The notes beneath the pieces were generated by a model. The model had not been told where the DNA came from. It saw only the letters and a list, made by a program, of their open reading frames with translations, and searched no databases. The translations under genes and the position numbers were made by a program. This document shows positions 15,734-51,335 of a DNA stretch of 64,000 nt, piece by piece. The first letter of the stretch is position 1. The number at the start of each line of letters is the position of its first letter. Source of the DNA: a virus; the IMG/VR virus record IMGVR_UViG_3300044634_004833, positions 90,942 through 154,941 of that record; one strand, 5' to 3'.

Positions 15734-16044
15734 GAGTTAATATATTTTTGTCTTAGTTCTTCTGCAAGTTCTTCAGCAATTGCTGCATTCACGTTTCTTC
15801 TTGTCAATTCTTTTATTAGATTTTTTTCTATGAACAGCTTATATGCTAAACCTTTTCTTTTGGCACTTTTCTTAATAAAATCTTGTCCTTTTTTGCATTC
15901 CTGTAATATTCTGAAAGCACCTATGCATATTGAAATTATCATAAGAATTGTAAATGGGTCAAAACCAATAGCATCATCAAATTTGTCGTGTACTATTTTT
16001 GATATATCTTTTTCATTCATAGTTGTCTCCATTTTTGTTTCCAT
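15730..16044 (-). CDS. small membrane protein
   Basis: One hydrophobic segment FTILMIISICIGAF. Confidence 0.65.
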   Translation of the reverse strand: METKMETTMNEKDISKIVHDKFDDAIGFDPFTILMIISICIGAFRILQECKKGQDFIKKSAKRKGLAYKLFIEKNLIKELTRRNVNAAIAEELAEELRQKYINS

Positions 16045-16061
16045 ACTATATAGGTTTGTAT

Positions 16062-16096
16062 AAAAAAAAAGAGTCTGGTTGCCCAGACTCTTTTTT
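16062..16096. terminator. bidirectional rho-independent terminator
   Basis: A9-GAGTCTGG-ttgc-CCAGACTC-T6. Confidence 0.85.
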
Positions 16097-16113
16097 GTTT
16101 CGTTAAGTATAAA

Positions 16114-16386
16114 TCATGTGCTTGATACAACGCCAATAACGTCTGTTATGGTTTGAAGTGTGTCGGTGAATTCAGCACCGTCAGCCATTTCTGTAACCTT
16201 AACATCTTGACCAACGCCACCAGCGGCGGTTGTCATATAACCTGTTCTCTGAGCAGAGACAGGGATTGTGGCGGGTTGGCCAGCAGCAGTGTTTGGATTG
16301 GTGATGTAAGTAACGCTTGTGTCCAAGGATCCCTCGTCAGCCAAGTTTCTGGCTTCTGGAGTTAGCCTTAATTGATAAGTTGCCAT
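16114..16386 (-). CDS. small Thr/Ala/Gly-rich protein, likely virion structural
   Basis: SD AGGAG; TATAAATA at 16442-16449 (-); own terminator. Confidence 0.7.
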   Translation of the reverse strand: MATYQLRLTPEARNLADEGSLDTSVTYITNPNTAAGQPATIPVSAQRTGYMTTAAGGVGQDVKVTEMADGAEFTDTLQTITDVIGVVSST

Positions 16387-16510
16387 AATTTTCTCCTATA
16401 AAAAAAGGTCATGCATGCCTCTATTAGGCACAGTTATATATTATTTATATACTTTCTTTTCATTTTATATACAATTTTTTTATACCAATTGGTTGTTTGC
16501 CGTGGGTAGC

Positions 16511-16520
16511 CCCCTACAAT
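16511..16520 (+). promoter_or_regulatory. class B promoter variant CCCCTACAAT
   Basis: Upstream of ATG 16566. Confidence 0.55.
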
Positions 16521-16565
16521 TTGAAGTGTCAGGCCGAAAGTAAAGTTATGAAAGGAAGGCAAATC

Positions 16566-16904
16566 ATGAAAAATGAAAAAGAAGTTTTGTGGGATGAAAT
16601 TGATATTGGCACCCATCCATACAGTGAAATAGGTGTTGCAACTACAGATGCTGATTATCTTACAAAAGCCAAACAGGAAGCAGTCGCTTTTCGTCGCCAA
16701 CTTATTCGTAAGTTTGGCAAGAGGGAAGATGCTGAATTCTTGGTACGCAAAATTAAGCAGCCTGACAACATTTATTACAATGTTGTTTTGACTTATCAGA
16801 TCAACGACTTTGATTCATCTAACTTTGCATTTATTCAAGTGGAAGAATCTATTCCAGACCATTGGGATGATATGGCTAAAAAGGAATTAGCTCAAGTTAA
16901 ATAG
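16566..16904 (+). CDS. hypothetical phage protein
   Basis: SD AAGGAAGG; ATG 16566. Confidence 0.7.
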   Translation: MKNEKEVLWDEIDIGTHPYSEIGVATTDADYLTKAKQEAVAFRRQLIRKFGKREDAEFLVRKIKQPDNIYYNVVLTYQINDFDSSNFAFIQVEESIPDHWDDMAKKELAQVK

Positions 16905-16923
16905 ACAAACCCGCTAAACTACG

Positions 16924-16931
16924 CATATATA
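16924..16931 (+). promoter_or_regulatory. late-like promoter CATATATA
   Basis: 4 nt before ATG 16936. Confidence 0.55.
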
Positions 16932-16935
16932 CAGT

Positions 16936-17670
16936 ATGCGTAGTTTATTTGATTTTTATGAAAGCAAAAAGTCTACTCTTGAGTACCATGAGACTCTTAA
17001 TCCAAAACTATGGATCGGAGAGAAGCTTAAACCTCAAATTAGACAAAAACTTCTTGAAATAGCTAATTTTTGGGCAGAGCATGCTTTAATTCCTGAAGAT
17101 GCAATACAGGATATAACATTGGTAGGCGGAAATGCCAATTTTAATTATACAGATTTGTCAGATGTTGATTTGCACCTCTTAATAGACAAATCAAAAATAG
17201 CAGAATGCGAAGATAAAATACTAGATGAATATCTAAAAGATAAAAAAGCTATATGGGGTCTTACTCATGACCTTCAGATTTATGGCATACCTGTAGAGAT
17301 ATATGCACAGGACATTTCTGAAAAGACAAGCAAAGACCAAGGGGTTTTTTCAGTAAAAAACAACAAATGGGTTAGCAAACCAACATATAAAAGAATTAAT
17401 ATAAACGATCCTATTATTCAAAAAAAAGCAAGATCTATAGAAAATGTTATTAATTATTTTATGCAAAATAAAGTAGATAATCTTCAATTGTTAAATAATT
17501 TTAAAGATAAAGTAAGAAACATGAGAGGCACTGCCATTAAAAGAGGTGGTGAATTTAGTGTTGAAAATTTAGCATTCAAAGAATTAAGAAATAAAGGTCT
17601 GCTTGATAAATTTACTAATTATATTGTAAGCATCGAAGATAAGAAACTTAGTTTGGGGGAAAATGATTAA
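16936..17670 (+). CDS. pol-beta-superfamily nucleotidyltransferase (T4-like phage family)
   Basis: LVGGNANFNY..SDVDLHL (G[GS]..DxD); third acidic residue in PVEIY. Confidence 0.8.
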   Translation: MRSLFDFYESKKSTLEYHETLNPKLWIGEKLKPQIRQKLLEIANFWAEHALIPEDAIQDITLVGGNANFNYTDLSDVDLHLLIDKSKIAECEDKILDEYLKDKKAIWGLTHDLQIYGIPVEIYAQDISEKTSKDQGVFSVKNNKWVSKPTYKRININDPIIQKKARSIENVINYFMQNKVDNLQLLNNFKDKVRNMRGTAIKRGGEFSVENLAFKELRNKGLLDKFTNYIVSIEDKKLSLGEND

Positions 17671-17902
17671 ATTCAATGATTGGATACACACAAGAGAATC
17701 AAGTGCCTCGACCAGAAACAAATGGATGGCTGCTTTAGGTCTTCAGCCAATGTATTCAGCAGATGTGTTTGGACATGCAACTCCAAGACCTTGGGTTGCA
17801 GAAAAACTACTTAAAAATTTAAAGAAGAAAAAGAAGAAGAAGAAGAAGAAATCTAAACACAAAAAGCACAAAACCTTTAAGGAGTTTTTGGAAAACAAAT
17901 AG
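17663..17902 (+). CDS. small poly-Lys protein with targeting-like motifs at both ends
   Basis: MIKFNDWI...K10 run...KTFKEFLENK. Confidence 0.65.
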   Translation: MIKFNDWIHTRESSASTRNKWMAALGLQPMYSADVFGHATPRPWVAEKLLKNLKKKKKKKKKKSKHKKHKTFKEFLENK

Positions 17903-17923
17903 GCATCGTTATAATTATTCATA

Positions 17924-18274
17924 ATGATTTTTAAAGAATGCCGCAACTGCAAAGAACAAAGAATACTAGAAGATTTTCCTCTTTTTTCAACTAAAGAAGC
18001 TGGAAGAAAAAATACCTGCAAAATTTGTACTTATAAACTAAGTGAGATCAGACGGCATCTAAAAATTACAAATCCTCCACCGCCTCCCGGCAACTGTCCG
18101 ATTTGTAATTTCTTTACTGATTCATGGATACTTGATCATTGTCATTTTTCAAATGCTTTTCGTGGATACATATGTAATTCTTGCAACCTTGGTCTTGGTA
18201 GATTTAATGATGATATTGATATTTTGAGAAAAGCAATTGATTACCTTGGCAGGCAGACCACTCCTGTTCCTTAA
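17924..18274 (+). CDS. endonuclease VII-family HNH nuclease
   Basis: CxxC pairs; LDHCH..RGYICNSCNLGLG..D..L.KAIDYL. Confidence 0.9.
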   Translation: MIFKECRNCKEQRILEDFPLFSTKEAGRKNTCKICTYKLSEIRRHLKITNPPPPPGNCPICNFFTDSWILDHCHFSNAFRGYICNSCNLGLGRFNDDIDILRKAIDYLGRQTTPVP

Positions 18275-18277
18275 TCC

Positions 18278-18520
18278 TTAGTCTTTTCTAATGCCTTGTA
18301 CTTTTGGATTGGAATCCATTTTTTTTATTATGTTCAAAGCTTTCCAAGGAGCCTTTTTGGAAAGATTCTTTAACCTAACATGGTCTTTAGCATCAATTGT
18401 ATAAGTATAAAGTCTATCCCCTATGTAAACCATTACACGGCCATCGCTGAACCAGCCAGCATATTTAATTTGTTTTTCATCGGCTTCAAAAAGCCATTGT
18501 TTAAATTGTAATTGACTCAT
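18278..18520 (-). CDS. small protein with capsid-targeting-like N-terminus
   Basis: MSQLQFKQWLFEA; AATATATA 5 nt upstream. Confidence 0.7.
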   Translation of the reverse strand: MSQLQFKQWLFEADEKQIKYAGWFSDGRVMVYIGDRLYTYTIDAKDHVRLKNLSKKAPWKALNIIKKMDSNPKVQGIRKD

Positions 18521-18601
18521 TGTTGTATATATTTGAATTTGCCTATTATTTTTGTTGACTCATTGTCGATTTGTTGGCATGATAATAACAAGGGGAAATA
18601 T

Positions 18602-19630
18602 ATGCTTATTGACAAGCCTTCATTACAATTTAAACAAAACAAACACACAACCTATGTTGGCGATTCTTTGCAATTTTTAAAAGCACTTCCAGAAGACCCT
18701 ATTTTCAATCTTATCTTCACCTCCCCTCCGTACAATCTTGGCAAGACCTATGAAGATAAAGTTGAAATTGGAGAATATTTAAAGCTAATAATTCCTATTT
18801 TAGAAGAATCATTTAAAAGACTTGCTCCAGATGGCTCGTTGATTCTTCAGGTAGGCAATTATATTACATCTGGAAAGACTAGAGTTCCACTTGACTACAT
18901 ATTCTTTCCATGCTTAAGCCAATTAGGATTTATATTTCAACAAAGAATCATATGGCATTATCGACATGGCCTTCATGGTAAAAATAGATTTGATGGAAGA
19001 CATGAAGCTGCTATGTGGTTCACCAAGAACGAAGACTATAAGTTCAATATTGATCCTGTAAGAGTTCCACAACTTTATCCCAATTACAAGAACAAAGGTG
19101 TTAAAACAGCAAACCCTATGGGTAAGAACCCTAGTGATACTTGGGAAATGGAAGCCCCAGAACTTATGACGGCAGATTTCATTGATAACATTCCTAATGT
19201 TAAGAAGAACCATTGTGAAAAAGTTGATCTTGTAAACCCTGTTTCAGCAGATGAAACCCATCCTTGCCAGTTCCCTGTAGGTCTGGCAGAACGATTCATT
19301 TTGTCAATGACAGACAAAGGCGACGTTGTTTTCGACCCATTTGCAGGAGTTGGATCCTGTGGGGTTGCAGCAGTTATGAACGAAAGAATTTATCTTGGTT
19401 GCGACTTAATTGAACGATATGGACTAACTGCCGACCAAAGAATAGAAGATCATCTTCAAGGAAAGAGGAAGTACAGGCCTCATAACGCTAAGATTCCCGA
19501 TCCTGCCAATAGTAGTTGTGGCCCTAATCCCAAACCCAAGAAATCAGACCATAAACAAGCGCAAAAGCCAACCTCTGCCTCGTTTGATTGGTCAAGCATC
19601 CAAATAAATTTGAACGATTTAGTCAAGTAG
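18602..19630 (+). CDS. beta-class N4-C/N6-A DNA methyltransferase (M.BglII-like)
   Basis: TSPPYN before DPFAGVGS; WHYRHGLH..RFDGRHE; HPCQFP. Confidence 0.92.
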   Translation: MLIDKPSLQFKQNKHTTYVGDSLQFLKALPEDPIFNLIFTSPPYNLGKTYEDKVEIGEYLKLIIPILEESFKRLAPDGSLILQVGNYITSGKTRVPLDYIFFPCLSQLGFIFQQRIIWHYRHGLHGKNRFDGRHEAAMWFTKNEDYKFNIDPVRVPQLYPNYKNKGVKTANPMGKNPSDTWEMEAPELMTADFIDNIPNVKKNHCEKVDLVNPVSADETHPCQFPVGLAERFILSMTDKGDVVFDPFAGVGSCGVAAVMNERIYLGCDLIERYGLTADQRIEDHLQGKRKYRPHNAKIPDPANSSCGPNPKPKKSDHKQAQKPTSASFDWSSIQINLNDLVK

Positions 19631-19684
19631 GTTGTTTTTTTTGTAGTCCTCCCTAAAACTATATTGTGGGCAGGGAAAGACCCC

Positions 19685-19711
19685 CTGCGATAAGTTTTTC
19701 AAATACTCTAG
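19685..19711 (+). promoter_or_regulatory. class A motif CTGCGATAA-N14-CTAG
   Basis: Exact spacing; upstream of MTase 2. Confidence 0.75.
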
Positions 19712-19754
19712 TGGCCGGGAAGCCATTAACTAAAGTATGGAAGGAGGTGCAGCG

Positions 19755-20675
19755 ATGCATTGTTTGCGTTTTCAACAAGGACATGGTGGTCGTTTCAGTG
19801 ATCAGAGCTTGAGCAAGAAAAGCCCATCCTATATTGTTGATAAAGACTATGCGATTTGGCAGGATGACTGCCGTAAACTTTTGAAAGAATTGCCTCGTAC
19901 TAAATCAATCAACATGGTGTGGAGTTCTCCTCCATATAATGTTGGCAAGTGCTATGAGAACAATAAATCAATTAATGAATATCTAGACTTTCATAAAGAA
20001 GTGATTGATGAAATCATTCCTCGTATGGATGATGATGGAATTGTTTGCTGGCAAGTTGGTTTCTATGTGAATAATAAAACTGGCGAAATTGTGCCGCTTG
20101 AATATTTCTTCTATGACATGTTCAAGAAACATGGTTTGATTATGAAGAATCGAATCATTTGGCATTATCGACATGGTTTGACTTACGATAGTCGATTCGC
20201 TGGCAGACATGAAACAATTATGGTCATGACTAAAGGTAATCATAATTTTAATGTTGATCCTGTGCGTATGCCACAGATTTATAAGAATAAGAAGAAGAAT
20301 GGAAAGTTGACCTGCAATCCTCTTGGTAAAAACCCTGGAGATGTTTGGGATAACATTCCTAATGTTAAGGCTAGTCACCCAGAGAAGATTGATCTGTATA
20401 ATGGTCATACCAAGACCAAAGAGAAACATCCTTGCCAAACTCCAGTTGGTCTGGTTGAAAGGTGCTTGTTGAGCATGACTAAACCAAAAGACCTTATCTT
20501 GGACCCATTTGCAGGTACTGGAAGTATTGGTGTTGCTGCTGCAATTCATGGACGGCGATTCTGGGGCTGTGAAATTTCAGCCAAATACGCTATCGCTGCC
20601 CAAGGTCGAATCAACCAAGCGTTGAGAGGGGAAGCTATGTGGCGACCCCATAACAAACCTATAAAATCTGTTTAA
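19755..20675 (+). CDS. second beta-class N4-C/N6-A DNA methyltransferase, paralog of 18602..19630
   Basis: SSPPYN, WHYRHGL..RFAGRHE, HPCQTP, DPFAGTGS; SD AAGGAGGT before ATG 19755. Confidence 0.92.
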   Translation: MHCLRFQQGHGGRFSDQSLSKKSPSYIVDKDYAIWQDDCRKLLKELPRTKSINMVWSSPPYNVGKCYENNKSINEYLDFHKEVIDEIIPRMDDDGIVCWQVGFYVNNKTGEIVPLEYFFYDMFKKHGLIMKNRIIWHYRHGLTYDSRFAGRHETIMVMTKGNHNFNVDPVRMPQIYKNKKKNGKLTCNPLGKNPGDVWDNIPNVKASHPEKIDLYNGHTKTKEKHPCQTPVGLVERCLLSMTKPKDLILDPFAGTGSIGVAAAIHGRRFWGCEISAKYAIAAQGRINQALRGEAMWRPHNKPIKSV

Positions 20676-20721
20676 AAGTTAGTTTTGGTTTTTTCATTCA
20701 TTTAAGAAAGGATGGTGCGTT

Positions 20722-22482
20722 ATGTCTACTACTCACGAGTTGGATGATCCTATTATTTTGAGAGACACTTTTAATATTGTTGATGCTGCTACAAGGATGC
20801 GGGCTATTAAGGATGCTTTGAATGATTCTTCTAAACGAGCACAAGCTATGCCCGTTGGAAACGAAGATATTATCATAGATGGCAATCAGTATAGTTGGGA
20901 GCCAACTATGCTTGATTTTGATAATTTATTATTTGATGTTGCAAACTTCCGTACTCCGATTGCTTGCCAAGAATTTGGTATAGATGATCCTTATAGTAAA
21001 TGGGATAGCGATCAAATTGAAGACCAATTGATTGCGATGAAAGCATTATACGAATGTGAATACAAGGAAGAAGGTCAACGAGTTCTTTTTGACAATTTGA
21101 AATCTCACAAAAAACTTATTCGCCCATTAGTCGTGGACGGAATGGGCGTTGTTCGTGAAGGCAACAAAAGACTTTTTGCAATTTTGGAGCTTCATAAAAG
21201 AGGTGTTTGGCATCGCAAACAAATCGAAGTTGTAGTCCTGCATGAAAAAATACATGTAGTAGGCGGTGGCACAGAGTTGCAACCTGTTACTGACAAAACT
21301 CTAATTCAGAAAGTAAAAGAGCATTATAGCAAGCATGATGATGGCAAGAGAGATCATCATGACTTCGAAAAAGCAGAACAAACCTATCTCCGCTACAACA
21401 AGGTTAATCCTTTTGATTCCACTCCTCTTCCTGCGGAGTTGGCAAACAAATCTAAAGAAAATAGGAAAATTATTAAAGAAGAATTTTTGCTAGGCGAAGC
21501 CATCTCTAAATTTAGGGATAAAACTGCCAGTTTGAGAGATGCTGGTGGCAAATTGATTTTGCCTGTGCGAACTAGTGGTCACATGCAAATAGTTCAATTA
21601 ATGAAAGATATTGTTGACGTTATTAAAGCAATTAAACGACAATATGCAAACAATCCTCTTCTAAACCAGTTTATTGATTATGCATATCAAGAAACAATCA
21701 GCTATATTATCATGTTTCATGACGTAAATCATCCAGATCATGATCGAACTAGGCAAGATTGTTACAGAGCTACTCATGGAGAAGTATGCCACAAATACTT
21801 CCTGCACTGTTTTGATAATGTTTGGGTTGAATCGATACCAAATTTTTTAATGCTGAAGTCGCAAGCAGTTGCCCCATCGCAACCTGCAACGCCCACACAG
21901 AATATTCAAGCACCCCCACAGAATATTCAAGCACCCCCACAGAATATTCAGCCAGTTTCTTCGCCTCCTTCTGGGCCTTCAGGGGCACAAGGCAGATTGC
22001 AAAGGGGTGGCGGTACTACGCCTCCTCCAGTTGCAACCATGTCTGATTATGATTCTATGAAGTTTGATAGAGATTATGTAAAGCAGGTTAAGGCAGATAA
22101 GGATAGGAATGGCGATGACATTTGTGAAAAAATCCATGATAGTGTTGGCAAAGTAACAGAAAACATAGAGTCTTTGTTGATAACTAAGATTTCAGGAAAG
22201 ACTCAACTTGTATTATCTCCTGAAAACACTGGCAAGATAGTCAAATTGTTGATGAACAATATTTGTGATAGCGCAGGTGTCATATTTGAGATTGAAAAGC
22301 TAGCACCTCCGATGGTGCAAAACAAATTTGTGGTAGATATTTTTTCTAAAGTTGTCGAACATGGATTGCGTTTGATTTATAGAGTAATGCAATCTAATGG
22401 ACAAGCAACTAATGATGTTGAAAAAATAATTGAGCGACAGACATTGGATGCAGTTCGAAATCATTTGTTTGGCAAGAAGTAA
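20722..22482 (+). CDS. ParB/Srx-like N-terminal domain protein
   Basis: NFR...RPLVVD..VVREGNKRLFA matches the ParB GxxR box; Pro/Gln-rich linker. Confidence 0.65.
   Translation: MSTTHELDDPIILRDTFNIVDAATRMRAIKDALNDSSKRAQAMPVGNEDIIIDGNQYSWEPTMLDFDNLLFDVANFRTPIACQEFGIDDPYSKWDSDQIEDQLIAMKALYECEYKEEGQRVLFDNLKSHKKLIRPLVVDGMGVVREGNKRLFAILELHKRGVWHRKQIEVVVLHEKIHVVGGGTELQPVTDKTLIQKVKEHYSKHDDGKRDHHDFEKAEQTYLRYNKVNPFDSTPLPAELANKSKENRKIIKEEFLLGEAISKFRDKTASLRDAGGKLILPVRTSGHMQIVQLMKDIVDVIKAIKRQYANNPLLNQFIDYAYQETISYIIMFHDVNHPDHDRTRQDCYRATHGEVCHKYFLHCFDNVWVESIPNFLMLKSQAVAPSQPATPTQNIQAPPQNIQAPPQNIQPVSSPPSGPSGAQGRLQRGGGTTPPPVATMSDYDSMKFDRDYVKQVKADKDRNGDDICEKIHDSVGKVTENIESLLITKISGKTQLVLSPENTGKIVKLLMNNICDSAGVIFEIEKLAPPMVQNKFVVDIFSKVVEHGLRLIYRVMQSNGQATNDVEKIIERQTLDAVRNHLFGKK
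21892..21952 (+). repeat. 3 x 21 bp in-frame repeat (P[PT]QNIQA)
   Basis: Core CACAGAATATTCA x3 at 21-bp period. Confidence 0.9.
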
Positions 22483-22495
22483 TAGGAGTAAAATC

Positions 22496-24436
22496 ATGGA
22501 TAAGGTTAAGATACAACTTTCTGTAAATAAGTCTTTTGTAGAAGTTTATTGTATTGGGAATGGAGAGTCCTACAAAGAGATAATGAAATTTGTAGGAATT
22601 CAAACTCAGGCAATGCCATATATTGGCAAGTCTGTAATCTCCACCAAATTATCAGAAGATCAATATAGAATAGTCTTTGAAAGAGAAGCATTCGTAAAGT
22701 TATGGATAAGTTTTAAAAATTGGTATGCCATTCATTCAGGATTGCATTTTCGTAATTATGGCGCTCATTTTGCAGACATGGAGATGACTGAAGAAGACGA
22801 AGATATAATTGATAGCATAGTTGCAGGAAATAATTATTCTGATGTTAAATTAGAAAACTATACTTCAAGGAAAGATGCCGAAAACGAGATAATAAAACAG
22901 GATTTGATTAAGTTTGGAGTTTCACTATCTGATGAAACAAATCTTGAGGAAGATCAGTATGCTAGTGTTAAACAACACTTAAATGGCAGTATTTTTAATT
23001 GCAGTTTGGCTGGCTGTGGAAAAACTATAGTTTCATTATCATCGTATGTCCTTGAGACAAACTGGCAAGTTCCTTTGGTCGTATTCGGCTCAAAAAGCGC
23101 AATAGATTCATGGCAAGTTCAAGAATTGCCTAAGTGGGTTCCAGAAATAGCGAAAAATCATACAGTTAGAATTACATCTAAGAACATGCACATGTTTGAT
23201 ATGCTTGTGCGTAATAAAAAAGTAGTTTTAATAAACTATGATATTATTCATAGGATTTTTAATAAGCTATCACATTATTTTAAAGATGTTCATCCATATT
23301 GTATTTTGGATGAAGCACACCGTTTGAAAAATATAGCATCTAGGAAGACTGGCGCTATGTTGCGCTTGGTCGGATCGGCTTACAAAGTTAGAATTGTTAC
23401 TGCAACTCCGAATCCCAATGATATTGCTGGCGGGCCTCAAAAAGATTTAATTACTTTGTTGATGCTTGCACATCCTAATGCTCATATTTCGCAATTTCAA
23501 GATGAAGAGTATTCTAAGAATGAATTCAGTAGGTTGACAACATACTCAAACAACTTACCAGATGAAGTTGTTATGCCTACTTATTTTGCAGAAATGAGTG
23601 CTTTGCATAAAGATTTCTATCTTAGGCATATTGCCAGCAAGAATAACATTAGACGTATTCAGGGCTATCTTAGAAGCCAAGACCTCATTCGTGCAAGCCG
23701 AGCGCTTGCACATATAATGATGTACATAGCCTTTCCTTCTAGTCCAACGATATTGGCTAGACTAGAAAGAGATGATGATATTGATTCTGCAGAGATAGAA
23801 AGTCTTAGAAATTCCGGTCATGGAAGCAAGATTAATGCAACAGTAAACATTGCCAAAGATATTCTTGATGAAGGCAAAAAAGTAATTATATGGACTTCAT
23901 GGAATGATACTGCAAATTATTTGCAAAGTTTCTTTAGAGCAGAGAATGCAGTAATTTATAATGGTTCTGTAAGGGACAAAACTGTCCCATTGAAGGAGTT
24001 TCATGAGAATCCCAACTGTAGATTGTTTGTTGGGAATATAGGTTGTGGAGAAGCTATTAGTTTGCACAGGGTTGCACAACACGCCATATTTAATGACTAT
24101 AATTATAATTACTGCCATTACGTTCAAAGTCGTAATAGGCATCGTCGTAGGAATATGCCAGTAGGAACAGTTCCTACTACATATTTTATTCAAGCCACCT
24201 ACAATGGCAATCCAGAGTGGACAGTTGACCACAACATATCTGAAAGGATTGGCTTGAAGCATCGGAATAGCACAGATTTATTTAGCAGAATGGCACCTGT
24301 TGACTATTCAAAACCAAAGGACGATGCTCAAAAACTTGCAGGAACAGACAACAAAAATGATATTAGGACTAATATTGAAGGAGCTTTGCGTACCATGATG
24401 GATTTACATGAAGGCATGGACAACAATGACTCTTGA
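22496..24436 (+). CDS. SNF2-family helicase/ATPase
   Basis: AGCGKT, ILDEAHRLKN, TATP, KVIIW, GEAISL, QSRNRHRR; SD AGGAG before ATG 22496. Confidence 0.88.
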   Translation: MDKVKIQLSVNKSFVEVYCIGNGESYKEIMKFVGIQTQAMPYIGKSVISTKLSEDQYRIVFEREAFVKLWISFKNWYAIHSGLHFRNYGAHFADMEMTEEDEDIIDSIVAGNNYSDVKLENYTSRKDAENEIIKQDLIKFGVSLSDETNLEEDQYASVKQHLNGSIFNCSLAGCGKTIVSLSSYVLETNWQVPLVVFGSKSAIDSWQVQELPKWVPEIAKNHTVRITSKNMHMFDMLVRNKKVVLINYDIIHRIFNKLSHYFKDVHPYCILDEAHRLKNIASRKTGAMLRLVGSAYKVRIVTATPNPNDIAGGPQKDLITLLMLAHPNAHISQFQDEEYSKNEFSRLTTYSNNLPDEVVMPTYFAEMSALHKDFYLRHIASKNNIRRIQGYLRSQDLIRASRALAHIMMYIAFPSSPTILARLERDDDIDSAEIESLRNSGHGSKINATVNIAKDILDEGKKVIIWTSWNDTANYLQSFFRAENAVIYNGSVRDKTVPLKEFHENPNCRLFVGNIGCGEAISLHRVAQHAIFNDYNYNYCHYVQSRNRHRRRNMPVGTVPTTYFIQATYNGNPEWTVDHNISERIGLKHRNSTDLFSRMAPVDYSKPKDDAQKLAGTDNKNDIRTNIEGALRTMMDLHEGMDNNDS

Positions 24437-25370
24437 TCTAAATACAAGCACATTTAACAAGCTGTGCGATATTTGGAACATATTGTCTAAAAACAAAGGA
24501 ATAGATGTAGACTATCTTTCACATCTCTGCAAATCTATTAGATATAACGCAGGTTATGTTTTAGATTTTGGAATCAAAAATGAATTATTTTTTATAGATG
24601 AAAATAATTTAGTTTCTTTGACAAAGGAACAAACTATTTTTCAATTTAGATTGCAATTTATTATAAATTATATTAAAAATAATATTGACATTTTGCCATA
24701 CAAGAAGTCATTGCTTCGAGGAAGAATCGCTTTCATAAATGAAATAGGAATTTACAACAATGTTTATCAGATTATGAACGATGCAGGATTAATCAAAGAA
24801 AGCTCTCATGATGCTGCTGTGTTTTGGAAATTTATAGATGCTATTGCTAGAAATAAATTGAATTTACTTAAAGGGGACTATGGATTAATTGGCGAAGAGC
24901 TGTCTATTGAATTAGAGAACTCTTATTTAGATGCTGTAAGCTTGACAGTCAATGGACCCAAAAGAAAATGCAAATGGATATCTATAGACCGTCCTCATGC
25001 AGGATACGATATAAGAAGTTATTACATAGATTCTAAAAACCGTTATGTCAAAAAACGTATTGAAGTAAAAACTTCAAGGGATATAATAAAAGGAAGGATG
25101 TTTATAACTTGGAATGAATGGCGCAAAATGCGTTATGAAACAAGTTGTGGCAAGCTTCCAATCAAATATGTTATTCACCTTTGGGATATACATGATTTGA
25201 AGCATCCAAGACGAGCTATTTTGTGTTATGATGACATAGCTCCTTGTGTGCCAAGATTAAGAAATGGGGGCAGGATTGAGTCATTTAACATCGATGTTCG
25301 TAGGTTCTACGATAACCACAGATTCCACTATATTTCCAATCAAATTACCACAACTTTATCACAGCCATAG
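24426..25370 (+). CDS. DUF3883 (NO VEIN C-terminal) PD-(D/E)xK nuclease protein
   Basis: GLIGEE..E, AGYDIRS, IEVKTS, FITWNEW. Confidence 0.85.
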   Translation: MTLDLNTSTFNKLCDIWNILSKNKGIDVDYLSHLCKSIRYNAGYVLDFGIKNELFFIDENNLVSLTKEQTIFQFRLQFIINYIKNNIDILPYKKSLLRGRIAFINEIGIYNNVYQIMNDAGLIKESSHDAAVFWKFIDAIARNKLNLLKGDYGLIGEELSIELENSYLDAVSLTVNGPKRKCKWISIDRPHAGYDIRSYYIDSKNRYVKKRIEVKTSRDIIKGRMFITWNEWRKMRYETSCGKLPIKYVIHLWDIHDLKHPRRAILCYDDIAPCVPRLRNGGRIESFNIDVRRFYDNHRFHYISNQITTTLSQP

Positions 25371-25776
25371 GTTTGCAGAGAACACAAACCAAGCATTTGT
25401 AAATAATGATTTTGCAAATTTATTTTTATTTTTGCCTAAGCCAGATATAGCAATTAAAACAAAAGACTTCAGAAAAACAGTTTCCGAATTATTTGTTAAA
25501 AATCAATATAAACAAGTTGATAGATCTTGTTTTTTCATAAAAAATAATATTGGCATAATATTTCAAACTGGCAACAAAATGAATGCTGCAACTGATTTGC
25601 TATACCTTCAAAACGAATATGTTCTACAAAATATTTATGGAGCAATTTATTGCACCCCTTCGAAAAAATGGAGAGATATTTGGTCGGAAGGAGTTATAGA
25701 AGCTGATAATGTAATTGGCTTGTTAAATGATTGCAAAGCAGTAATAACTTTGCCCGTCACACTATTCGAATTTTAA
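25294..25776 (+). CDS. BglII/BstYI-like restriction endonuclease fold, catalytic motif degenerate; start uncertain
   Basis: HSHRFAE and FIKNNIGIIFQTGN...DLLYLQ...IYGAI resemble DF.K..vgvEvQFG...Dl.k. Confidence 0.5.
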   Translation: MFVGSTITTDSTIFPIKLPQLYHSHRFAENTNQAFVNNDFANLFLFLPKPDIAIKTKDFRKTVSELFVKNQYKQVDRSCFFIKNNIGIIFQTGNKMNAATDLLYLQNEYVLQNIYGAIYCTPSKKWRDIWSEGVIEADNVIGLLNDCKAVITLPVTLFEF

Positions 25777-28293
25777 ATCGTTTTTAACTCTTTTCACAGT
25801 TGCTCCAGCCCAATTTATGTCTGGCGCTAACTCTTGGACTTTTGCTGGATCAATTTTTGCGACAGTATTTGAGCCTAGAGCATTGAATACTTTTTTCAAA
25901 TTAGTTGATATAGCAGTTTGATCTCCTGATTTTTCTGCTTCTGTTTCCATTTGTTTAAGAAATTTAGCAACAAGCTCGTTGATTACATTTTCATCCTTTG
26001 TTGCCCACCACTCAGGACTTATAGCAAAAATTTCATTCCAATGCCTACCTGTAAGCTGCATTACCAAATCTTCATCAGTAATATTGTTCATGTTTTCCCA
26101 GCCAATGTATTTATCAAGATATTTTTCACTAATTGAATTATTAAGATAAAAACGATAGGTTTGCAACAAAGACCTGACTTCTGAAGAATTAAGAACTTTA
26201 TTTTTCACTAAAGCATCAGTCAATTCTTTTCTTTTTTCTGCTTCTGAATAAATAAAGAACCTCGTAAAATTAATATCAGGATAATATTTGGCGAAATTGG
26301 TCATAAACCAAATTTGGAATTCGTATCTGTTTTTTATGCTCAATAAGTTGCTGACTTCCCACTCATCAAATTTCTTAAATTTTTCAGCACCTATAATTTT
26401 TGTTAATTCATTTAAGTTTTTATTTGGAGCATGAATTAGCATGAATGCAATATCACTATTTGATAATTTTTCTATATTATCAGTAATTTGATTTGTATCA
26501 GAATTTAAGTTGTCTGAATTTATGATTGCTTGAATAAATTTCAAATAAACGTCAGGATCATTTCCATTTTCCTGTAATAAATTTAAAGCTTCAAGTATTT
26601 TTATTAATACAGGACCTCTTTGTTCTGTTAATACTTTTAGTTTTTTAGGATCTTTTATCCATGTATCTAATTCTTCCTGAAAAGCATGTATATTTTGTAT
26701 AATTCCAAGTTTTTTAAATGTTTCTGGGTCTAATTTTTCGTATAACTTATTAATAAGAACCCCTCCATGTATTACCATATTAATTATTTTATCATTTAAA
26801 TAAGTGCTTCCTAAATTTTTAAAAACATCAGGATCATTTTTTAGTTTATCAAACAATTCATCGCCTATGATTTCAAATCGTTCATTCATATCTTCTGGTG
26901 TTCTAGATCGCTTAATAAATTGAATTGCATCAGATAGATTTACTTTTCTTTTTATATTTTTAATCATATTCCATATTTCTTCTTTTTTATTATATTCTCC
27001 CATTGATATTATGAAGCTTTCTATAAAATTATCATAATTCCATCCTATATCAGAATATGATAAATGGGTCAAATAATCTTTCAAATGTTTTTCATTTTTT
27101 GAAAGGAATAAAGCTTTCGACTTTGAATTAATTTTTTTGCCAATAATAAAAATGGCTTTCTCAGCATCAGATAGTTCGTCAAATTTATTGTCAGCAAGAT
27201 TGTCTGTTAATTTTAGGAAATAGTACATTCTTTTGCAAATTCCATCAATTAAATCTTTTTCTTGTTCACAATCTTTTTTTACAGCATTTAAATTTTGTTG
27301 TTCAATTTGATCTTTTACAGATGTTTCAAATTTACTCAACGGCTCTGCTTTGAATTCAGAAACATTAACACCCATAGATTTAAGATAATCCAAATATTCT
27401 GGTAAATTTTGGTAGCCGTTTACTGAAAAAGAAATATTATCTTTTGTTGCGCCTCTAGCATTTCTTCTGTCTACCCATTCAGAATATTCACCGGCAGTAG
27501 CAACTCCCGGGTTCACATATCTTGCTGGGTCGTTTGAGCTTTTGTTAAAATCAAATATAAAGTATTGAGTTTGTCCGTATTCATGTCTATAGTTAAAGTA
27601 ATATTTTACACTTTCTGAACTACTAATGCACCATCTTTGGCCTTTGCCCATAATCCTACATTTAAATGGATCATCTCCTTTAAAAACCCATATGTTTTTG
27701 CCTTTTGAAACTAAATCAGCATTATTTTGTAGTTCTAAAAAAGCTGGATTTTGCAGTCCTTTTTCTGTTTTAAAATCTCCGTCATTATTTGGTTGGTGTT
27801 GTATACCATGTAATATTGAAATAAATTGATTCATATCATTGTAATTTGATATAATCTGATCCTCAAATCGTATTTCAGGCTTGTTTTTGAAAAGTAACTC
27901 AATTTGATTGTTAGATATAAAACTTCTTAACAGAACCATCATTTCATCAATTGCTTGTTGAAATAATACGCTATTGTTTTCTTTTTCTGCGAAGTAAACA
28001 GCCGTTTTATATTCTGGTATGGTTATTTGTTTGTTTTTCAAATTATCATAAAGAACTTTTAAAACAGGTAACTTTGGCTCTTCTATTTCAATTTCTTTTT
28101 TCTTAATGAACTTGCTTTGAAGAATTGAAAAGGCTGATTTTTTATCGTGTGGAGTTGGGGCGGCTTCAAGCTCTGCAATAGCTTTCTCGACTTCTTCTTT
28201 GTTTGCTGGCCACTTAGCTTGCAAAAGTATATTTTTTACATTTGGATCAAGAGTTTCCCATAGCTTGATCCATTTTTTGAAGGTTATATTCAT
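25762..28293 (-). CDS. large protein with capsid-targeting-like N-terminus and 'WCISSS' domain
   Basis: MNITFKKWIKLWE; paralog of 1..2367. Confidence 0.85.
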   Translation of the reverse strand: MNITFKKWIKLWETLDPNVKNILLQAKWPANKEEVEKAIAELEAAPTPHDKKSAFSILQSKFIKKKEIEIEEPKLPVLKVLYDNLKNKQITIPEYKTAVYFAEKENNSVLFQQAIDEMMVLLRSFISNNQIELLFKNKPEIRFEDQIISNYNDMNQFISILHGIQHQPNNDGDFKTEKGLQNPAFLELQNNADLVSKGKNIWVFKGDDPFKCRIMGKGQRWCISSSESVKYYFNYRHEYGQTQYFIFDFNKSSNDPARYVNPGVATAGEYSEWVDRRNARGATKDNISFSVNGYQNLPEYLDYLKSMGVNVSEFKAEPLSKFETSVKDQIEQQNLNAVKKDCEQEKDLIDGICKRMYYFLKLTDNLADNKFDELSDAEKAIFIIGKKINSKSKALFLSKNEKHLKDYLTHLSYSDIGWNYDNFIESFIISMGEYNKKEEIWNMIKNIKRKVNLSDAIQFIKRSRTPEDMNERFEIIGDELFDKLKNDPDVFKNLGSTYLNDKIINMVIHGGVLINKLYEKLDPETFKKLGIIQNIHAFQEELDTWIKDPKKLKVLTEQRGPVLIKILEALNLLQENGNDPDVYLKFIQAIINSDNLNSDTNQITDNIEKLSNSDIAFMLIHAPNKNLNELTKIIGAEKFKKFDEWEVSNLLSIKNRYEFQIWFMTNFAKYYPDINFTRFFIYSEAEKRKELTDALVKNKVLNSSEVRSLLQTYRFYLNNSISEKYLDKYIGWENMNNITDEDLVMQLTGRHWNEIFAISPEWWATKDENVINELVAKFLKQMETEAEKSGDQTAISTNLKKVFNALGSNTVAKIDPAKVQELAPDINWAGATVKRVKNDLKFE

Positions 28294-28364
28294 GAGATAA
28301 TCTATTTATTTAGCAACTATCTTAAAATTAATCTATTCTAAATAAATAATACAGGAGAAATACT

Positions 28365-31300
28365 ATGGACTACAAATTTGAATTGCCAAAACAAGCACCT
28401 AATGTTGATTTGGATCCTATTAAAATTAATGGTAAATCATTACAAATTACTGGATACATAGAAACTGTAGATCCATTTGGAAATGTAAAAATATCAGTGC
28501 CCAAAGACGGCCAAAGATTTAACGATACACCACAGAATTTGGCGGATGTAATGGGAGCAATAAATCCCACTCCAACACATTATATTCTTTATAATGGTAC
28601 TCAAGGTTTGACAGATTATCAGCTTCAATTAGGAACAGAACAATCTTATGCATATGATCCTGTAATTACATATACAACAGATGGGGATTATAAAGTAAAA
28701 GTTATAACATGTGCAGATGCAGAAGGAATTAATAAAATAATATATAATAGTTCATTAGTACCAGAAAAGTGTTTGTTTGATGCTCTGTCAGATGTAGTAG
28801 ATTTAGGATACAAATTAAGACTTATGAGTCCAGATTATGCTTCTGCAGGAGCAACAACCGAACTTATATGTGAATATTTTCTTTTTAGAGGATATTCTTT
28901 TTCTGTTAAAAGTACAGTTGACGTATGGATTACCACTAGTCAGTTTGCCAGTTCTTGGATTTATCCTGGCCCCAACCCAAATAAACCTACAAGATTTTTA
29001 AACAAACCAAGTGTTTTGCCACAAGGCGCAACAACTACTACTACCACAACAACTACTTCTACCACTACTACTACAACATCGGCTCCAATTTCAACCTCAA
29101 CTACAACGACAGCGGCTCCGGGTGCTGGTGGCAGACTGCCTCTTCCCGGCAATTCTTTGTCTTATAACGGTGTCACTCTTACAGGCTCTGGTTCAGGTAG
29201 TAATTATGCAGCACCATTTACCTATTGTTCAGTATCCATGCCTGCTAATTCTATGATTCTTGGAAATGCTGGAAGTGGTACTTATACGCTTACATTCTCT
29301 TTGCCTGTAAACAATATTCAAATTTTAGGATCAGGTCAAAATTTTGGAGAAACCTTTACATTTTCAGTCAATAATGGCACATTAACCACAAGTCTAATGC
29401 CAGGAATTGGTTGCAATGCCACTTTAACTGGAAATACTGTAGGTAATTCCAGCGTTGGTTCTTTTGGAGCAACGCTAGCATCAACATCAGATTACACATC
29501 TTTGTCTATAACATTCCCCGGCGGTGGCGGCGGCACATTGTTCTCAGTTATAGAAAGCTCTGTTGTTTCTGGAGCAACCACAACTACACCTGTTCCAACA
29601 ACCACAACAACTACTACACCTGCGCCTACTACAACTACACCTGTTCCAACAACCACTACCACTCCAGCACCTGCAGTTTCTACTGGATTGCCATTAATTG
29701 GAACCTCTTCTGTTATAAATGGTGTTACATTAACGGCATCTGGCGTTGGAACTTCTTATTCAAGCCCTTGGTCAAGCTGCTCTCCTCCTATCTCAATTAC
29801 TGCACCTTGCTTGTTCTTGGGAAGAGCCATTGGAACATATACTGTTTCATTTGATTCATTACAGAATGATATAGTAATTTTTGCAAACGCTAGTGACACA
29901 GGAGAAAGCTTTGACTTTGGAGTAGACTCAGGAACACTAAGCATTAGTGTTGTTCAAAGCTGCGGAGTAACAGTATCTGGAACAACAGTTTCTAGCGTTG
30001 GAGCAAATGTTGGATGGGTCATAAGGCTCACAAGCACAACTCCATACTCTCAAATAACAATATATTCTGGTGCTGTAACATCTGGAAGCCTTTTTGGAAT
30101 TTATGCAAGCTCAATAGTTCCAGGTGCAGTAGTAACAACTACAACGCCAATTCCAACAACTACTACAACCACAACTACTACAACCACTCCCGAACCAACA
30201 ACAACCACCACTACTACTACACCTGCTCCAACGACCACTACAACCACAACTACTACAACTACAACCACTACAACTACAACCACTACAACAACTACAACTA
30301 CGCCCGCACCAGACCAAGCATATTCATTGTTTGGATGGGGAGAAGGTAACCTAGGAAATAATCGTTCTGCTGGAGCCCAATCGCCAACTCAAACAGTTTC
30401 TGGCGGAACAAATTGGGGAACACCTCCAAAATGCTCTTATGCACAACACTATGCCATATTGAAGAAGGATGCAACACTCTGGGCATGGGGCACTAATAGT
30501 GCAGGAGAACTTGGTAATAACACAACAACAAATAGAAGTTCTCCTATTCAAATTGCTGCCCCCGCAGGAGTTACATGGAATGCTGTAAATATGGGATATC
30601 AAACCACATTTGTTATAGACACAACCGGCGCATTGTGGGGATGGGGCAAAAATAACTTTGGGCAGTTGGGCATTAGCACTACAATAAATGTAAGCTCTCC
30701 TGTTCAGATCAGCGCCGATACAACATGGAGTTCTATTGTAGCAGGCAATTTTGCTACTTATGCAATTAAGAAAAATGGAACTTTATGGGCATTTGGATAC
30801 AATGTACAAGGACAAATCGGAGATGGAACAATAGTAAACAAAAGCAGCCCAGTTCAAATTGGCTCTGACACCACATGGTCACAAATAACTGCTGGTCAAG
30901 GACACGCATTATCAATTAAATCAGATGGAACTTTGTGGGCATGGGGAGCAGGGTCTAACGGTTCCCTTGGAAATGGTACAATAACACATAGAAGTAGCCC
31001 CATTCAAATAGGAACTGATAATACATGGTCTTTAATACAATCAACTGGATTTGGCGGAGCAGCTTTGAAAACAGATGGAAGCCTATGGTGCTGGGGCGGA
31101 AATACAAATGGCGCTCTAGGAGATGGAACAACAGTTCACAGAAGTAGCCCAATTCAAATAGGATCTGATACAAATTGGACAGATATCGCTGGAGGACAGT
31201 ATTCTGTAGTTGCACTAAAATCAGACAAATCCTTATGGCATTGGGGCTATGGTGGAGCAATGGGCATAGGTGTAAACTCTGCCAGAAGCTCTCCAGTTCA

Positions 31301-50962: not shown

Positions 50963-50989
50963 CTGCGATAAAAAATGGAGAAGTATTAG
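50963..50989 (+). promoter_or_regulatory. class A motif
   Basis: CTGCGATAA-N14-TTAG. Confidence 0.75.
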
Positions 50990-51124
50990 GGGGCACCAGA
51001 AAAGGAGGCGGTGAAAATCTAGGATATGCAATGTTAATCTCACGCAAGGTGAGCGTTGTGAATTAAACCCGTGAATCCCCACCCGTCCTAGCGAAGGGGT
51101 TTTTACAACAATAAGGAGGGTTAT

Positions 51125-51334
51125 ATGACTAAGGGTTCTCGTGACTTGTTTCTTGCTGACATTCAGGCAGCGATTAAAGAGCATTACATACTTACTGAAA
51201 GGGAAGCTGAGTGTGTCTTGCATTCACTAAGAATTGATGTGCATGCAATTGATACATTGTTGAAATTCAAAAGATTGAGTCAAGACAAGGTTGACTTAAT
51301 TCTCTCTAAATCTAGAGAGGCTGGGTTGGTTTAG
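51125..51334 (+). CDS. small hypothetical early protein
   Basis: SD TAAGGAGG. Confidence 0.75.
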   Translation: MTKGSRDLFLADIQAAIKEHYILTEREAECVLHSLRIDVHAIDTLLKFKRLSQDKVDLILSKSREAGLV

Positions 51335-51335
51335 G

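What the first reader, a model, noticed from the sequence alone, without database searches (positions are those of the whole stretch)
18602..25776. Phage-borne six-gene RM-like system: 2 MTases + ParB-like + SNF2 + DUF3883 nuclease + BglII-like
Seen: co-oriented and tightly coupled genes, with overlaps at SNF2/DUF3883/BglII-like. There are two paralogous SPPY beta-class MTases, a ParB-like NTPase, an SNF2 ATPase, a PD-(D/E)xK DUF3883 nuclease with intact D and ExK, and a BglII-fold protein. The phage class A motif (19685) sits before MTase 2, so the operon looks wired into the phage program rather than being a passive passenger. Known: SNF2, DUF3883, ParB and MTases recur in defence islands, but this order does not match BREX, DISARM or type I-III RM as I know them. 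Inference: an undescribed methylation-gated, ATP-dependent restriction system used against competing phages or host DNA.
Basis: partly seen in the sequence, partly recalled or inferred. Interest (0 to 1): 0.85.

Follow-up and report, generated by a model that had tools for sequence, protein, structure and literature searches.

The report
Phage-borne methylase-linked restriction-like cassette
A very large phage carries two DNA methylases followed by an exchangeable four-gene set (ParB-like protein, Snf2 motor, DUF3883 nuclease, BglII-like protein without its cutting residues). The same parts list occurs in bacteria next to known defence genes, so it looks like an unnamed, untested restriction-modification-type weapon.

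Summary
All six genes are real and co-oriented. They are two SPPY beta-class methyltransferases (45% identical), a 586-aa ParB/Srx-like protein, an Snf2 ATPase, a NOV_C/DUF3883 PD-(D/E)xK nuclease with D..ExK intact, and a small BglII-family protein. No PADLOC or NCBIfam model names the set.

The same parts recur in other orders:
- on distant phage-like contigs: ParB-like, Snf2, NOV_C, Dam, MTase;
- on bacterial contigs: MTase, BglII-like, ParB-like, Snf2, NOV_C, once beside dGTPase and SMC-like defence genes.

1. The BglII-like protein has hydrophobic residues where the family keeps its two catalytic carboxylates, so it is probably a DNA reader and not a nuclease.
2. The cluster is two units. 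The methylases belong to the conserved phage backbone (97-99% identity to relatives, dS below 0.1). The four downstream genes are an allele-swapped cassette (27-79% identity, dS 1.5-2.3, dN/dS 0.08), with the break exactly at the end of MTase 2.
3. The system is not phage-specific. This scan has already noted the bacterial five-gene form several times.

Best reading: a methylation-gated, ATP-driven restriction system used by the phage against unmethylated host or rival DNA. Function is inferred, not shown. The closest system in print is Hma (an Snf2-DUF3883 fusion).

The parts
18506..18583 (+). Two sigma-70-like promoter candidates and a direct repeat, TTGACTCATTGT x2, upstream of M1
   Evidence: Read directly from the sequence and found by the consensus scan. 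Promoter-like sites are not enriched over shuffles, so this is weak.
18602..19630 (+). M1: beta-class N6/N4 DNA methyltransferase with an SPPY motif IV
   Evidence: PF01555 2.9e-44. PADLOC MTase_II 5e-55. PDB relatives are M.RsrI, M.PvuII and N4C methyltransferases. It is 97-99% identical in L005 and L009.
19670..19711 (+). Hairpin GCAGGG..CCCTGC with a T-run, overlapping the phage motif CTGCGATAA-N14-YTAG (19685-19711)
   Evidence: Terminator-like site. The motif occurs 13 times in the window against 0.01 expected. It is conserved between M1 and M2 in L005, L007 and L009.
19755..20675 (+). M2: a second SPPY beta-class DNA methyltransferase, a paralogue of M1 (45% identity)
   Evidence: PF01555 4.9e-48. 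Paralogy shown. A GGAGG ribosome-binding site precedes the ATG at 19755.
20722..22482 (+). P3: ParB/Srx-like protein with a conserved N-terminal ~345 aa, a low-complexity P/Q linker and a helical C-terminal domain
   Evidence: No family hit. Fold matches to ParB N-domains. Conserved N-x-R and G-N-[RK]-R-L boxes. An Snf2 gene always follows it.
22496..24436 (+). Snf2-family ATPase/translocase
   Evidence: PF00176 2.1e-14. phrog_62 3e-31. Walker A, DEAH and motif VI are invariant.
24408..25370 (+). NOV_C/DUF3883 PD-(D/E)xK nuclease. The start is probably at 24426. It overlaps the Snf2 stop.
   Evidence: PF13020 1.6e-8. D201 and E219-V-K221 are invariant in 6 homologues.
25294..25776 (+). BglII/BamHI-family protein lacking the family's catalytic D and E (F80 and I89 here). 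It overlaps NOV_C by 77 nt.

Best explanation
The cluster is a phage-borne, rearranged member of an unnamed family of methylase-linked restriction-type systems. The family's core is a ParB-like protein, an Snf2 motor and a DUF3883 nuclease.

Proposed working (inferred):
1. M1 and M2 methylate their sites on phage DNA.
2. The BglII-like protein has kept the restriction-enzyme scaffold but lost its two catalytic carboxylates. It binds the same sites when they are unmethylated.
3. The ParB-like protein is loaded there, perhaps as a nucleotide-dependent clamp, and recruits the Snf2 translocase.
4. The DUF3883 PD-(D/E)xK protein nicks or cuts the DNA.

In a lytic giant phage whose own DNA is pre-methylated, this would destroy unmethylated host DNA or co-infecting rival phages.

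The four non-methylase genes behave as an exchangeable cassette in the phage population, while the methylases stay fixed.

Shown here: gene content, motifs, synteny, cassette exchange and purifying selection. Inferred: every biochemical step, the methylation gating and the target.
For: 1. Domain assignments and intact motor and nuclease motifs.

2. The same components recur with a methylase in at least five arrangements:
- window and L007: M-M-P3-Snf2-NOV_C-BglII;
- the P0008 contig, at 35% P3 identity: P3-Snf2-NOV_C-BglII;
- L010-L012: P3-like-Snf2-NOV_C-Dam-MTase, where the MTase is 56-58% identical to M1 but the trio only 25-31%;
- L029, L031, L032: MTase-BglII-like-P3-like-Snf2-NOV_C with 1-4 nt overlaps, on a contig with cellular genes;
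- L045 and L049: a DUF1156-like MTase or an N6_Mtase, then P3-like-Snf2-NOV_C.

3. Defence context. L027 sits beside a dGTPase (1e-55) and an LmuB/AriA-like ATPase. In other genomes the P3-Snf2 pair is followed by PglZ or GmrSD.

4. No known system matches.

5. The BglII-like reader has lost its catalytic residues in two lineages: D to F and E to I/M in the phage clade, D to Q and E to Q in the bacterial cassette. Six true PF09195 members keep D and E.

6. Cassette exchange. Nucleotide identity to L005 and L009 falls from 96-100% to 60-80% and 40-50% exactly at 20680. dS is 1.5-2.3 in the cassette against 0.01-0.09 in the flanks, and dN/dS is 0.08. Swapped alleles held under purifying selection are typical of conflict loci.

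7. An Snf2-DUF3883 fusion (HmaA) is an experimentally shown anti-phage nickase (PMC11232893).

8. The phage's own promoter-like motif precedes M2.
Against: - There is no experiment on any member.
- The methylases stay 97-99% identical while P3 and Snf2 are replaced by alleles only 27-41% identical (L009). That is unexpected if the restriction genes must match the methylase specificity, and it allows the two units to be functionally independent.
- The ParB assignment rests on moderate scores (Z 5-6.7, Foldseek E 0.02).
- The BglII-like model was poor (pLDDT 52). A relocated active site that uses other invariant acids (D76, E65, E108) cannot be excluded.
- HmaA defends without its methylase (PMC11232893).
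Confidence: 0.6

Rival explanations
1. There are two independent units. M1 and M2 are ordinary phage self-protection (anti-restriction) methylases against host restriction enzymes. The four-gene cassette is a methylation-independent defence or exclusion module, an HmaA-like Snf2-plus-nickase triggered by something other than methylation state, that merely sits next to them.
For: - The recombination break lies exactly between M2 and P3. The methylases are backbone genes (97-99% identity, dS below 0.1) while the cassette alleles are anciently diverged.
- A hairpin and separate promoter-like elements lie before M1 and M2.
- HmaA protects without HmaB or HmaC (PMC11232893).
- The phage genome avoids several palindromes (CGCG 0 against 44 expected, CCATGG 0 against 25), which shows strong host restriction pressure.
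Against: - A methylase of varying family (beta-class SPPY, Dam, DUF1156-like, N6_Mtase) lies next to the P3-Snf2-NOV_C trio in most arrangements, including bacterial ones with 1-4 nt gene overlaps.
- A BglII-family fold next to an SPPY methylase looks like a derived type II restriction-modification pair.
Confidence: 0.22
2. It is a DNA replication, recombination or repair module of the phage. Snf2 would act as a fork or junction remodeller, DUF3883 as a structure-specific nuclease (like the Snf2 plus VRR-NUC pairs of other phages), and the ParB-like protein as a DNA-organising factor. The methylases would be unrelated neighbours.
For: - The neighbourhood holds DNA-metabolism genes: endonuclease VII, an RNase_T-like exonuclease and a UvrD-like helicase.
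- phrog_62 is annotated 'DNA helicase'.
Against: - Core replication genes are not normally swapped for alleles 27-41% identical between phages that are otherwise 97-100% identical.
- Homologous sets sit in bacterial chromosomes beside dGTPase, GmrSD and PglZ and are always methylase-linked.
- No cultured-phage genome in the collection carries a close Snf2 homologue.
Confidence: 0.08
3. It is a modification-dependent (type IV-like) or counter-defence system. The ParB-like protein, like the ParB-type domain of GmrSD/SspE-type enzymes, would sense foreign modified DNA, or the complex would remove host defence proteins from phage DNA.
For: - ParB/Srx domains act as sensors in GmrSD-type enzymes (stated in 10.1101/2025.10.09.681413).
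- One P3-Snf2 pair is followed by a GmrSD gene.
Against: - The regular presence of a cognate-looking methylase, and of a restriction-enzyme-derived reader, points to restriction that methylation blocks rather than restriction that needs it.
- No Pfam hit to GmrSD_N/DUF262 was found for P3.
Confidence: 0.07

Closest known systems
Hma system (HmaA-HmaB-HmaC; 'BREX-related type 1', centred on a DUF499 ATPase). Sources: PMC11232893; bioRxiv 10.1101/2025.10.09.681413
   Same: An Snf2 motor works with a DUF3883/NOV_C PD-(D/E)xK nuclease and is linked to a methylase and a further NTPase-like protein. HmaA is a proven anti-phage nickase. One relative found here (L045) even has a DUF1156-like (HmaB-type) methylase in front of P3-Snf2-NOV_C.
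   Different: Here Snf2 and DUF3883 are separate, overlapping genes. There is no DUF499 ATPase. A ParB-like protein and a catalytically degenerate BglII-family protein are present instead, and the methylases are beta-class SPPY enzymes. The PADLOC HmaA model gives no hit to the window's Snf2 at E 0.01 or below, and only 4e-6 to 7e-6 (about 22-23 bits) to relatives.
Type IIP restriction-modification pairs of the BglII/BamHI group (PF09195 endonuclease plus an SPPY beta-class N4-cytosine methylase; this pairing is from established knowledge)
   Same: A BglII-family fold is genetically linked to an SPPY beta-class methylase. In the bacterial cassette the two genes are adjacent, like an M-R pair.
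   Different: The BglII-like protein lacks the two conserved catalytic acids. It always comes with ParB-like, Snf2 and DUF3883 genes, and ATP-dependent translocation is implied.
ATP-dependent multi-protein restriction-like systems: DISARM (DrmD Snf2), Zorya ZorD, Dpd (DpdE plus ParB-like DpdB), Pbe, and MANTIS/Gao_RL (bioRxiv 10.64898/2026.09.23.753747)
   Same: Self-marking by methylation or another modification, combined with a helicase/translocase and a nuclease. The Snf2 protein gives weak hits to DrmD, ZorD, DpdE and PbeA models.
   Different: All scores are far below the family cut-offs (for example 22 bits against 950 for DrmD). None of the defining partners (DrmA/B/C, ZorA/B/C, DpdA/C, MtsA/B) is present.
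Virus-encoded restriction-modification systems used against host DNA (for example the chlorovirus R-M enzymes; from general knowledge, not checked here)
   Same: A lytic virus carries methylases that protect its own genome, together with a DNA-cutting function.
   Different: Those are simple type II enzymes. This one is a multi-protein, motor-driven set with an exchangeable cassette.

Membership tests
Hma (HmaABC) | HmaA: Snf2 helicase fused to a C-terminal DUF3883 nuclease in one polypeptide | tested here: not met
   Snf2 (22496-24436) and NOV_C (24408-25370) are separate overlapping ORFs, both here and in all relatives. The PADLOC HmaA model does not hit the window protein at E 0.01 or below.
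Hma (HmaABC) | HmaC DUF499 ATPase and HmaB DUF1156 methylase | tested here: not met
   No DUF499 or DUF1156 hit in the six window proteins. The methylases are PF01555.
Type II restriction-modification, BglII/BamHI group | Endonuclease of PF09195 with the catalytic D...E-x-Q/E | tested here: not met
   The fold and family are supported. But hhalign and MAFFT put F80 and I89 (M in one homologue) at the positions of the family's invariant D and E. A relocated active site is not excluded.
Type II restriction-modification, BglII/BamHI group | Cognate beta-class methyltransferase | tested here: met
   M1 and M2 are PF01555 proteins with SPPY. The base and site they modify were not determined.
DISARM | DrmA, DrmB (DUF1998) and DrmC, with DrmD above its cut-off | tested here: not met
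   Only a DrmD-model hit at 22 bits against a cut-off of 950. There are no DrmA, DrmB or DrmC hits.
BREX | PglZ, BrxC and the PglX methylase | tested here: not met
   None is present in the window cluster. One distant P3-Snf2 pair (L043) is followed by a PglZ gene.
ParB/Srx superfamily (P3) | ParB N-domain fold with box I (N-x-R type) and box II (G-x-R-R type) motifs | tested here: inconclusive
   Foldseek's top hits are ParB N-domains (best E 0.02, probability 0.90), and VIA-align gives Z 6.7 to 4.8 over residues 54-210. N-x-R and G-N-[RK]-R-L are invariant. ddrB-ParB scores E 0.02 in the L032 homologue. No Pfam hit reaches threshold.
ParB/Srx superfamily (P3) | Nucleotide (CTP/ATP) binding and hydrolysis | not testable with these tools
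   This needs biochemistry.
Unnamed five-gene cassette (MTase, BglII-like, ParB-like, Snf2, DUF3883) | All five component families present, co-oriented and tightly coupled | tested here: met
   All five are in the window. They are homologous to the L029, L031 and L032 components: A3 profile 2e-14 to 3e-16, NOV_C 1e-13 to 1e-17, Snf2 1e-35 to 1e-39, BglII-like 2e-4 to 7e-4, MTase 9e-81. The order differs (BglII-like is last) and the methylase is duplicated.

The most novel reading that the evidence does not exclude
This is a previously undescribed class of restriction system in which the four tasks are split among four proteins: site reading by a nuclease-dead BglII-fold protein, loading or clamping by a ParB-like NTPase, translocation by Snf2, and cutting by DUF3883. 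Here a giant lytic phage has captured it as an offensive weapon against unmethylated host or rival-phage DNA. Phage populations keep the methylases fixed and trade deeply diverged alleles of the restriction cassette.
Probability: 0.3. Interest if true: 0.8.

Novelty: new variant of a known kind. Interest (0 to 1): 0.62.

Why it matters
If the model holds, three things follow.
1. It adds a new architecture to methylation-based immunity. A restriction-enzyme fold would be recycled as a non-cutting site reader, coupled to a ParB-type protein and an Snf2 motor.
2. It shows that giant phages carry such systems themselves, most plausibly to destroy host or competitor DNA.
3. The sharp allele swapping of the four restriction genes beside fixed methylases gives a natural experiment. 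It can show which parts set specificity and which parts are under pressure from inhibitors.

The system is compact (about 5-7 kb) and could be tested in laboratory hosts.

Tried and rejected
- **Cultured-phage collection.** DNA search of 16000-29000: no match. tblastn of the Snf2 protein: only 22-28% partial hits. tblastn of the BglII-like protein: nothing.
- **IMG/VR scans.** Scans with P3, the NOV_C alignment and the 244-aa neighbour found no relatives.
- **Genome-contig scan** with the NOV_C alignment found only the 271-kb contig of G001. That 'MAG' has nine terminase hits and is probably a bin of phage contigs.
- **PDB sequence searches.** Searches for P3 and the BglII-like protein gave nothing meaningful.
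- **BglII-like structure model.** The AlphaFold2 model was poor (pLDDT 52) and its Foldseek search was uninformative, so the dead-nuclease call rests on alignments only.
- **VIA-align wide search** of the P3 model was dominated by a helical hairpin at residues 283-338 and was uninformative.
- **Complex prediction** of NOV_C with the BglII-like protein returned 'no answer' (score 0.00). This is neither support nor evidence against binding.
- **Capsid and terminase.** Gp23 and Terminase_6N were not found on the 155-kb record, which is only about 31% complete. Virus status rests on the IMG/VR classification and on gene content.
- **Literature.** Searches for DUF3883+ParB+methyltransferase and for BglII-like+helicase+defense found no paper. 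The Paracoccus restriction-deficient-strain lead from an earlier scan note could not be verified in the literature I could reach.
- **Named systems rejected:** DISARM, BREX, Zorya, Dpd, Pbe, Hma and MANTIS. Their defining partners are absent, and scores are far below the cut-offs where the library gives them (NCBIfam).
- **Unpublished genomes.** G121 and G227 appeared only in the tally.

Full report
**1. What is there**

The window is bases 90942-154941 of a 154.9-kb IMG/VR virus record. CheckV rates it 31% complete, so the source is a very large phage. Most large ORFs have no Pfam hit. Neighbours include endonuclease VII and a 244-aa protein shared with T4-like cyanophages and Prevotella phages.

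Six co-oriented ORFs fill 18602-25776:
- **M1 (18602-19630) and M2 (19755-20675)** are PF01555 methyltransferases (2.9e-44 and 4.9e-48). They are 45% identical to each other and both have SPPY. Their PDB relatives are M.RsrI, M.PvuII and N4C methylases.
- **P3 (20722-22482)** hits no library.
- **Snf2 (22496-24436)** is PF00176 at 2.1e-14, with GCGKT, DEAH and motif VI invariant.
- **NOV_C/DUF3883 (24408-25370)** is PF13020 at 1.6e-8 and keeps D201 and E219-V-K221 in all six homologues.
- **The last protein (25294-25776)** is BglII-like. Pfam is sub-threshold in four homologues. Protein-language-model neighbours score 0.95. hhalign against six genuine PF09195 proteins gives E 8e-5. A cassette homologue passes the Pfam cut-off.

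Gene spacing is tight: 46 nt, then 13 nt, then overlaps of 29 and 77 nt. The cluster ends against a convergent 843-aa gene.

**2. P3 is ParB-like, with moderate support**

An AlphaFold2 model of residues 1-345 (pLDDT 78) gives ParB N-domains as the top Foldseek rows (best E 0.02, probability 0.90). VIA-align gives Z 6.7 for pNOB8 ParB-N and about 5 for PadC and three chromosomal ParBs, over residues 54-210.

An alignment that includes distant relatives keeps only N-x-R, Q, and G-x-V-x-x-G-N-x-x-L as invariant columns. The [RK]-R pair that follows G-N is kept in all but one sequence. This corresponds to ParB boxes I and II. One bacterial homologue gives ddrB-ParB at E 0.02. NTPase activity is untested.

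**3. The BglII-like protein has lost the family's catalytic acids**

Six genuine PF09195 proteins taken from genomes (unpublished genomes not used) share D-[YFG]-x-K-x2-[VI]-x-[IVL]-E-[VI]-[QES]-F-[GN]. Profile-profile and multiple alignments show:
- The phage proteins read F-F-I-K-N-N-I-G-I-I-F-Q-T-G, so D becomes F and E becomes I or M.
- The bacterial cassette proteins read Q-Y-R-K-G-G-V-A-L-Q-F-Q-F-G, so D becomes Q and E becomes Q.

The scaffold is therefore kept while the carboxylates are gone in two diverged lineages. The protein is probably a DNA-binding reader.

Caveats: the structure model was poor, and other invariant acids (D76, E65) could form a relocated site.

**4. The parts travel together**

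The P3 family is small. Four representatives reach E 0.001 or better among 1.84 billion proteins with the phage profile. Every member has an Snf2 gene immediately downstream.

| Source | Gene order |
|---|---|
| Window, L007 | M-M-P3-Snf2-NOV_C-BglII |
| P0008 contig (35% P3 identity) | P3-Snf2-NOV_C-BglII |
| L010-L012 | P3-like-Snf2-NOV_C-Dam-MTase (MTase 56-58% identical to M1; trio 25-31%) |
| L029, L031, L032, L033 | MTase (38% identical to M1)-BglII-like-P3-like-Snf2-NOV_C, 1-4 nt overlaps |

The L032/L033 type lies next to cellular genes (Orn/DAP decarboxylase, MgtE). This is the bacterial form.

L027 has the MTase, P3-like, Snf2 and NOV_C genes beside an anti-phage dGTPase (1e-55) and an LmuB/AriA-like ATPase.

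In 7 of 400 genomes of the phylum that holds G001, a P3-like gene is always followed by Snf2. The partners there vary: a DUF1156-like methylase, an N6_Mtase, NOV_C, PglZ or GmrSD.

Conserved content in shuffled order, constant linkage to a methylase, and defence neighbours are the usual signature of a real multi-gene conflict system.

**5. No named system fits**

PADLOC and NCBIfam give only generic MTase_II hits, weak Snf2 hits (ZorD, DrmD, DpdE, PbeA, HmaA; where a cut-off is given, in NCBIfam, the scores fall far below it) and weak NOV_C hits (PDC-S36, PD-T4-1, Tiamat).

The nearest system in print is Hma. Its HmaA is an Snf2-DUF3883 fusion and a proven anti-T4 nickase (PMC11232893). Hma has been re-read as a DUF499-centred BREX-related system (10.1101/2025.10.09.681413). 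That paper mentions ParB only in other contexts (GmrSD, DndB) and holds no BglII or BamHI term. MANTIS (10.64898/2026.09.23.753747) has different parts.

Earlier notes of this scan describe the same five-gene cassette in several bacterial genomes. I reproduced its existence independently from metagenome contigs, but not its claimed phyletic range.

**6. The phage cluster is two units**

| Comparison | Flanks and M1/M2 (protein identity) | Cassette (protein identity) |
|---|---|---|
| L005 | 97-100% (two short flank ORFs, 79 and 80 aa, at 85% and 91%) | P3 72%, Snf2 79% |
| L009 | 93-100% (the 80-aa ORF at 89%) | P3 27%, Snf2 41% |

Nucleotide identity drops from 96-100% to 60-80% (L005) or 40-50% (L009) exactly at about 20680, the end of M2.

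dS is 0.01-0.09 for the flanks and methylases but 1.5-2.3 for P3 and Snf2, and dN/dS is 0.08. This means old, functional alleles were exchanged by recombination. It is not decay or in-place acceleration.

In L007 the variable block extends through the 843-aa gene and the RCC1-repeat protein.

M1 has sigma-70-like elements upstream. M2 is preceded by a hairpin and by the phage's own over-represented motif CTGCGATAA-N14-YTAG (13 copies against 0.01 expected). That motif is conserved in relatives.

**7. Reading**

The best explanation (confidence 0.6) is a methylation-gated, Snf2-driven restriction system. The BglII-like protein reads unmethylated sites, P3 loads or clamps, Snf2 translocates and DUF3883 cuts. 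The phage would use it against unmethylated host or rival DNA.

The main rival (0.22) is that the methylases are independent anti-restriction genes and the cassette acts without reference to methylation. The exact break at M2/P3 and the methylase-independent action of HmaA favour this rival. The recurrent methylase linkage across five arrangements argues against it.

A replication or repair role (0.08) and a modification-dependent or counter-defence role (0.07) are less likely.

**8. Verdict**

Novelty class: a new variant of a known kind, namely a restriction-modification-like, Hma-like system. The phage-borne, cassette-swapping form is the new element here. All functional steps remain to be tested.

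Noticed in passing
whole record G000 (154,941 bases, includes the window): The phage genome has no CGCG at all (0 against 44 expected from a Markov model), no CCATGG (0 against 25) and no GGCGCC (0 against 8.9). TGCGCA occurs once against 10.6 expected, and ACGT is at 0.45 of expectation. CpG overall is at 0.54. This strong palindrome avoidance points to specific host restriction enzymes.
   Followed up: partly
window 7170, 19685, 50963-62848 (13 sites, + strand): The bipartite motif CTGCGATAA-N14-YTAG occurs 13 times against 0.01 expected, all on the + strand. Most copies lie in the 51-63 kb gene array. At 19670-19688 its first half is the 3' arm of a terminator-like hairpin. It is likely a phage-specific promoter or terminator-promoter unit.
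   Followed up: partly
window 18523-18567: The direct repeat TTGACTCATTGT occurs twice, 33 nt apart, just upstream of M1. Each copy starts with a -35-like TTGACT. It could be tandem promoters or an operator.
   Followed up: no
window 25762-32621: The convergent 843-aa protein (no family) and the 1418-aa RCC1-repeat protein downstream are the most diverged genes against the relative L007 (60% and 54%, while the flanks are 85-93%). The variable block therefore extends beyond the cassette. They could be host-interaction proteins.
   Followed up: no
L014/L015 = CAYVOK010000001.1 (G001): The 271-kb contig that carries the closest relative of the cluster is deposited in a MAG labelled uncultured Acidimicrobiaceae. 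The 3.8-Mb bin has nine separate terminase-large-subunit hits on different contigs, so it looks like a bin of phage contigs and not a bacterial genome.
   Followed up: partly
L007:1500-2988: In the 271-kb relative, two extra genes are inserted between endonuclease VII and the 80-aa gene upstream of M1. One is a prepilin-type N_methyl/SBP_bac_10 protein and the other a nucleoside 2-deoxyribosyltransferase-like protein. This marks a local insertion hotspot.
   Followed up: no
L043:3223-9091 and L046:1765-6680: In two bacterial genomes the ParB-like/Snf2 pair is followed by a PglZ-domain protein (9.7e-42) or by a GmrSD type IV restriction enzyme instead of NOV_C. This suggests the pair is a reusable front end for different effectors.
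   Followed up: partly
L027:2740-15417: This metagenome contig has a defence-island layout around the cassette relative: an SMC/AAA_23-type ATPase (LmuB/AriA-like) with a Metallophos protein, and a fused N6-adenine-methylase/HD dGTPase-like protein of 852 aa (PADLOC dGTPase 1e-55).
   Followed up: no
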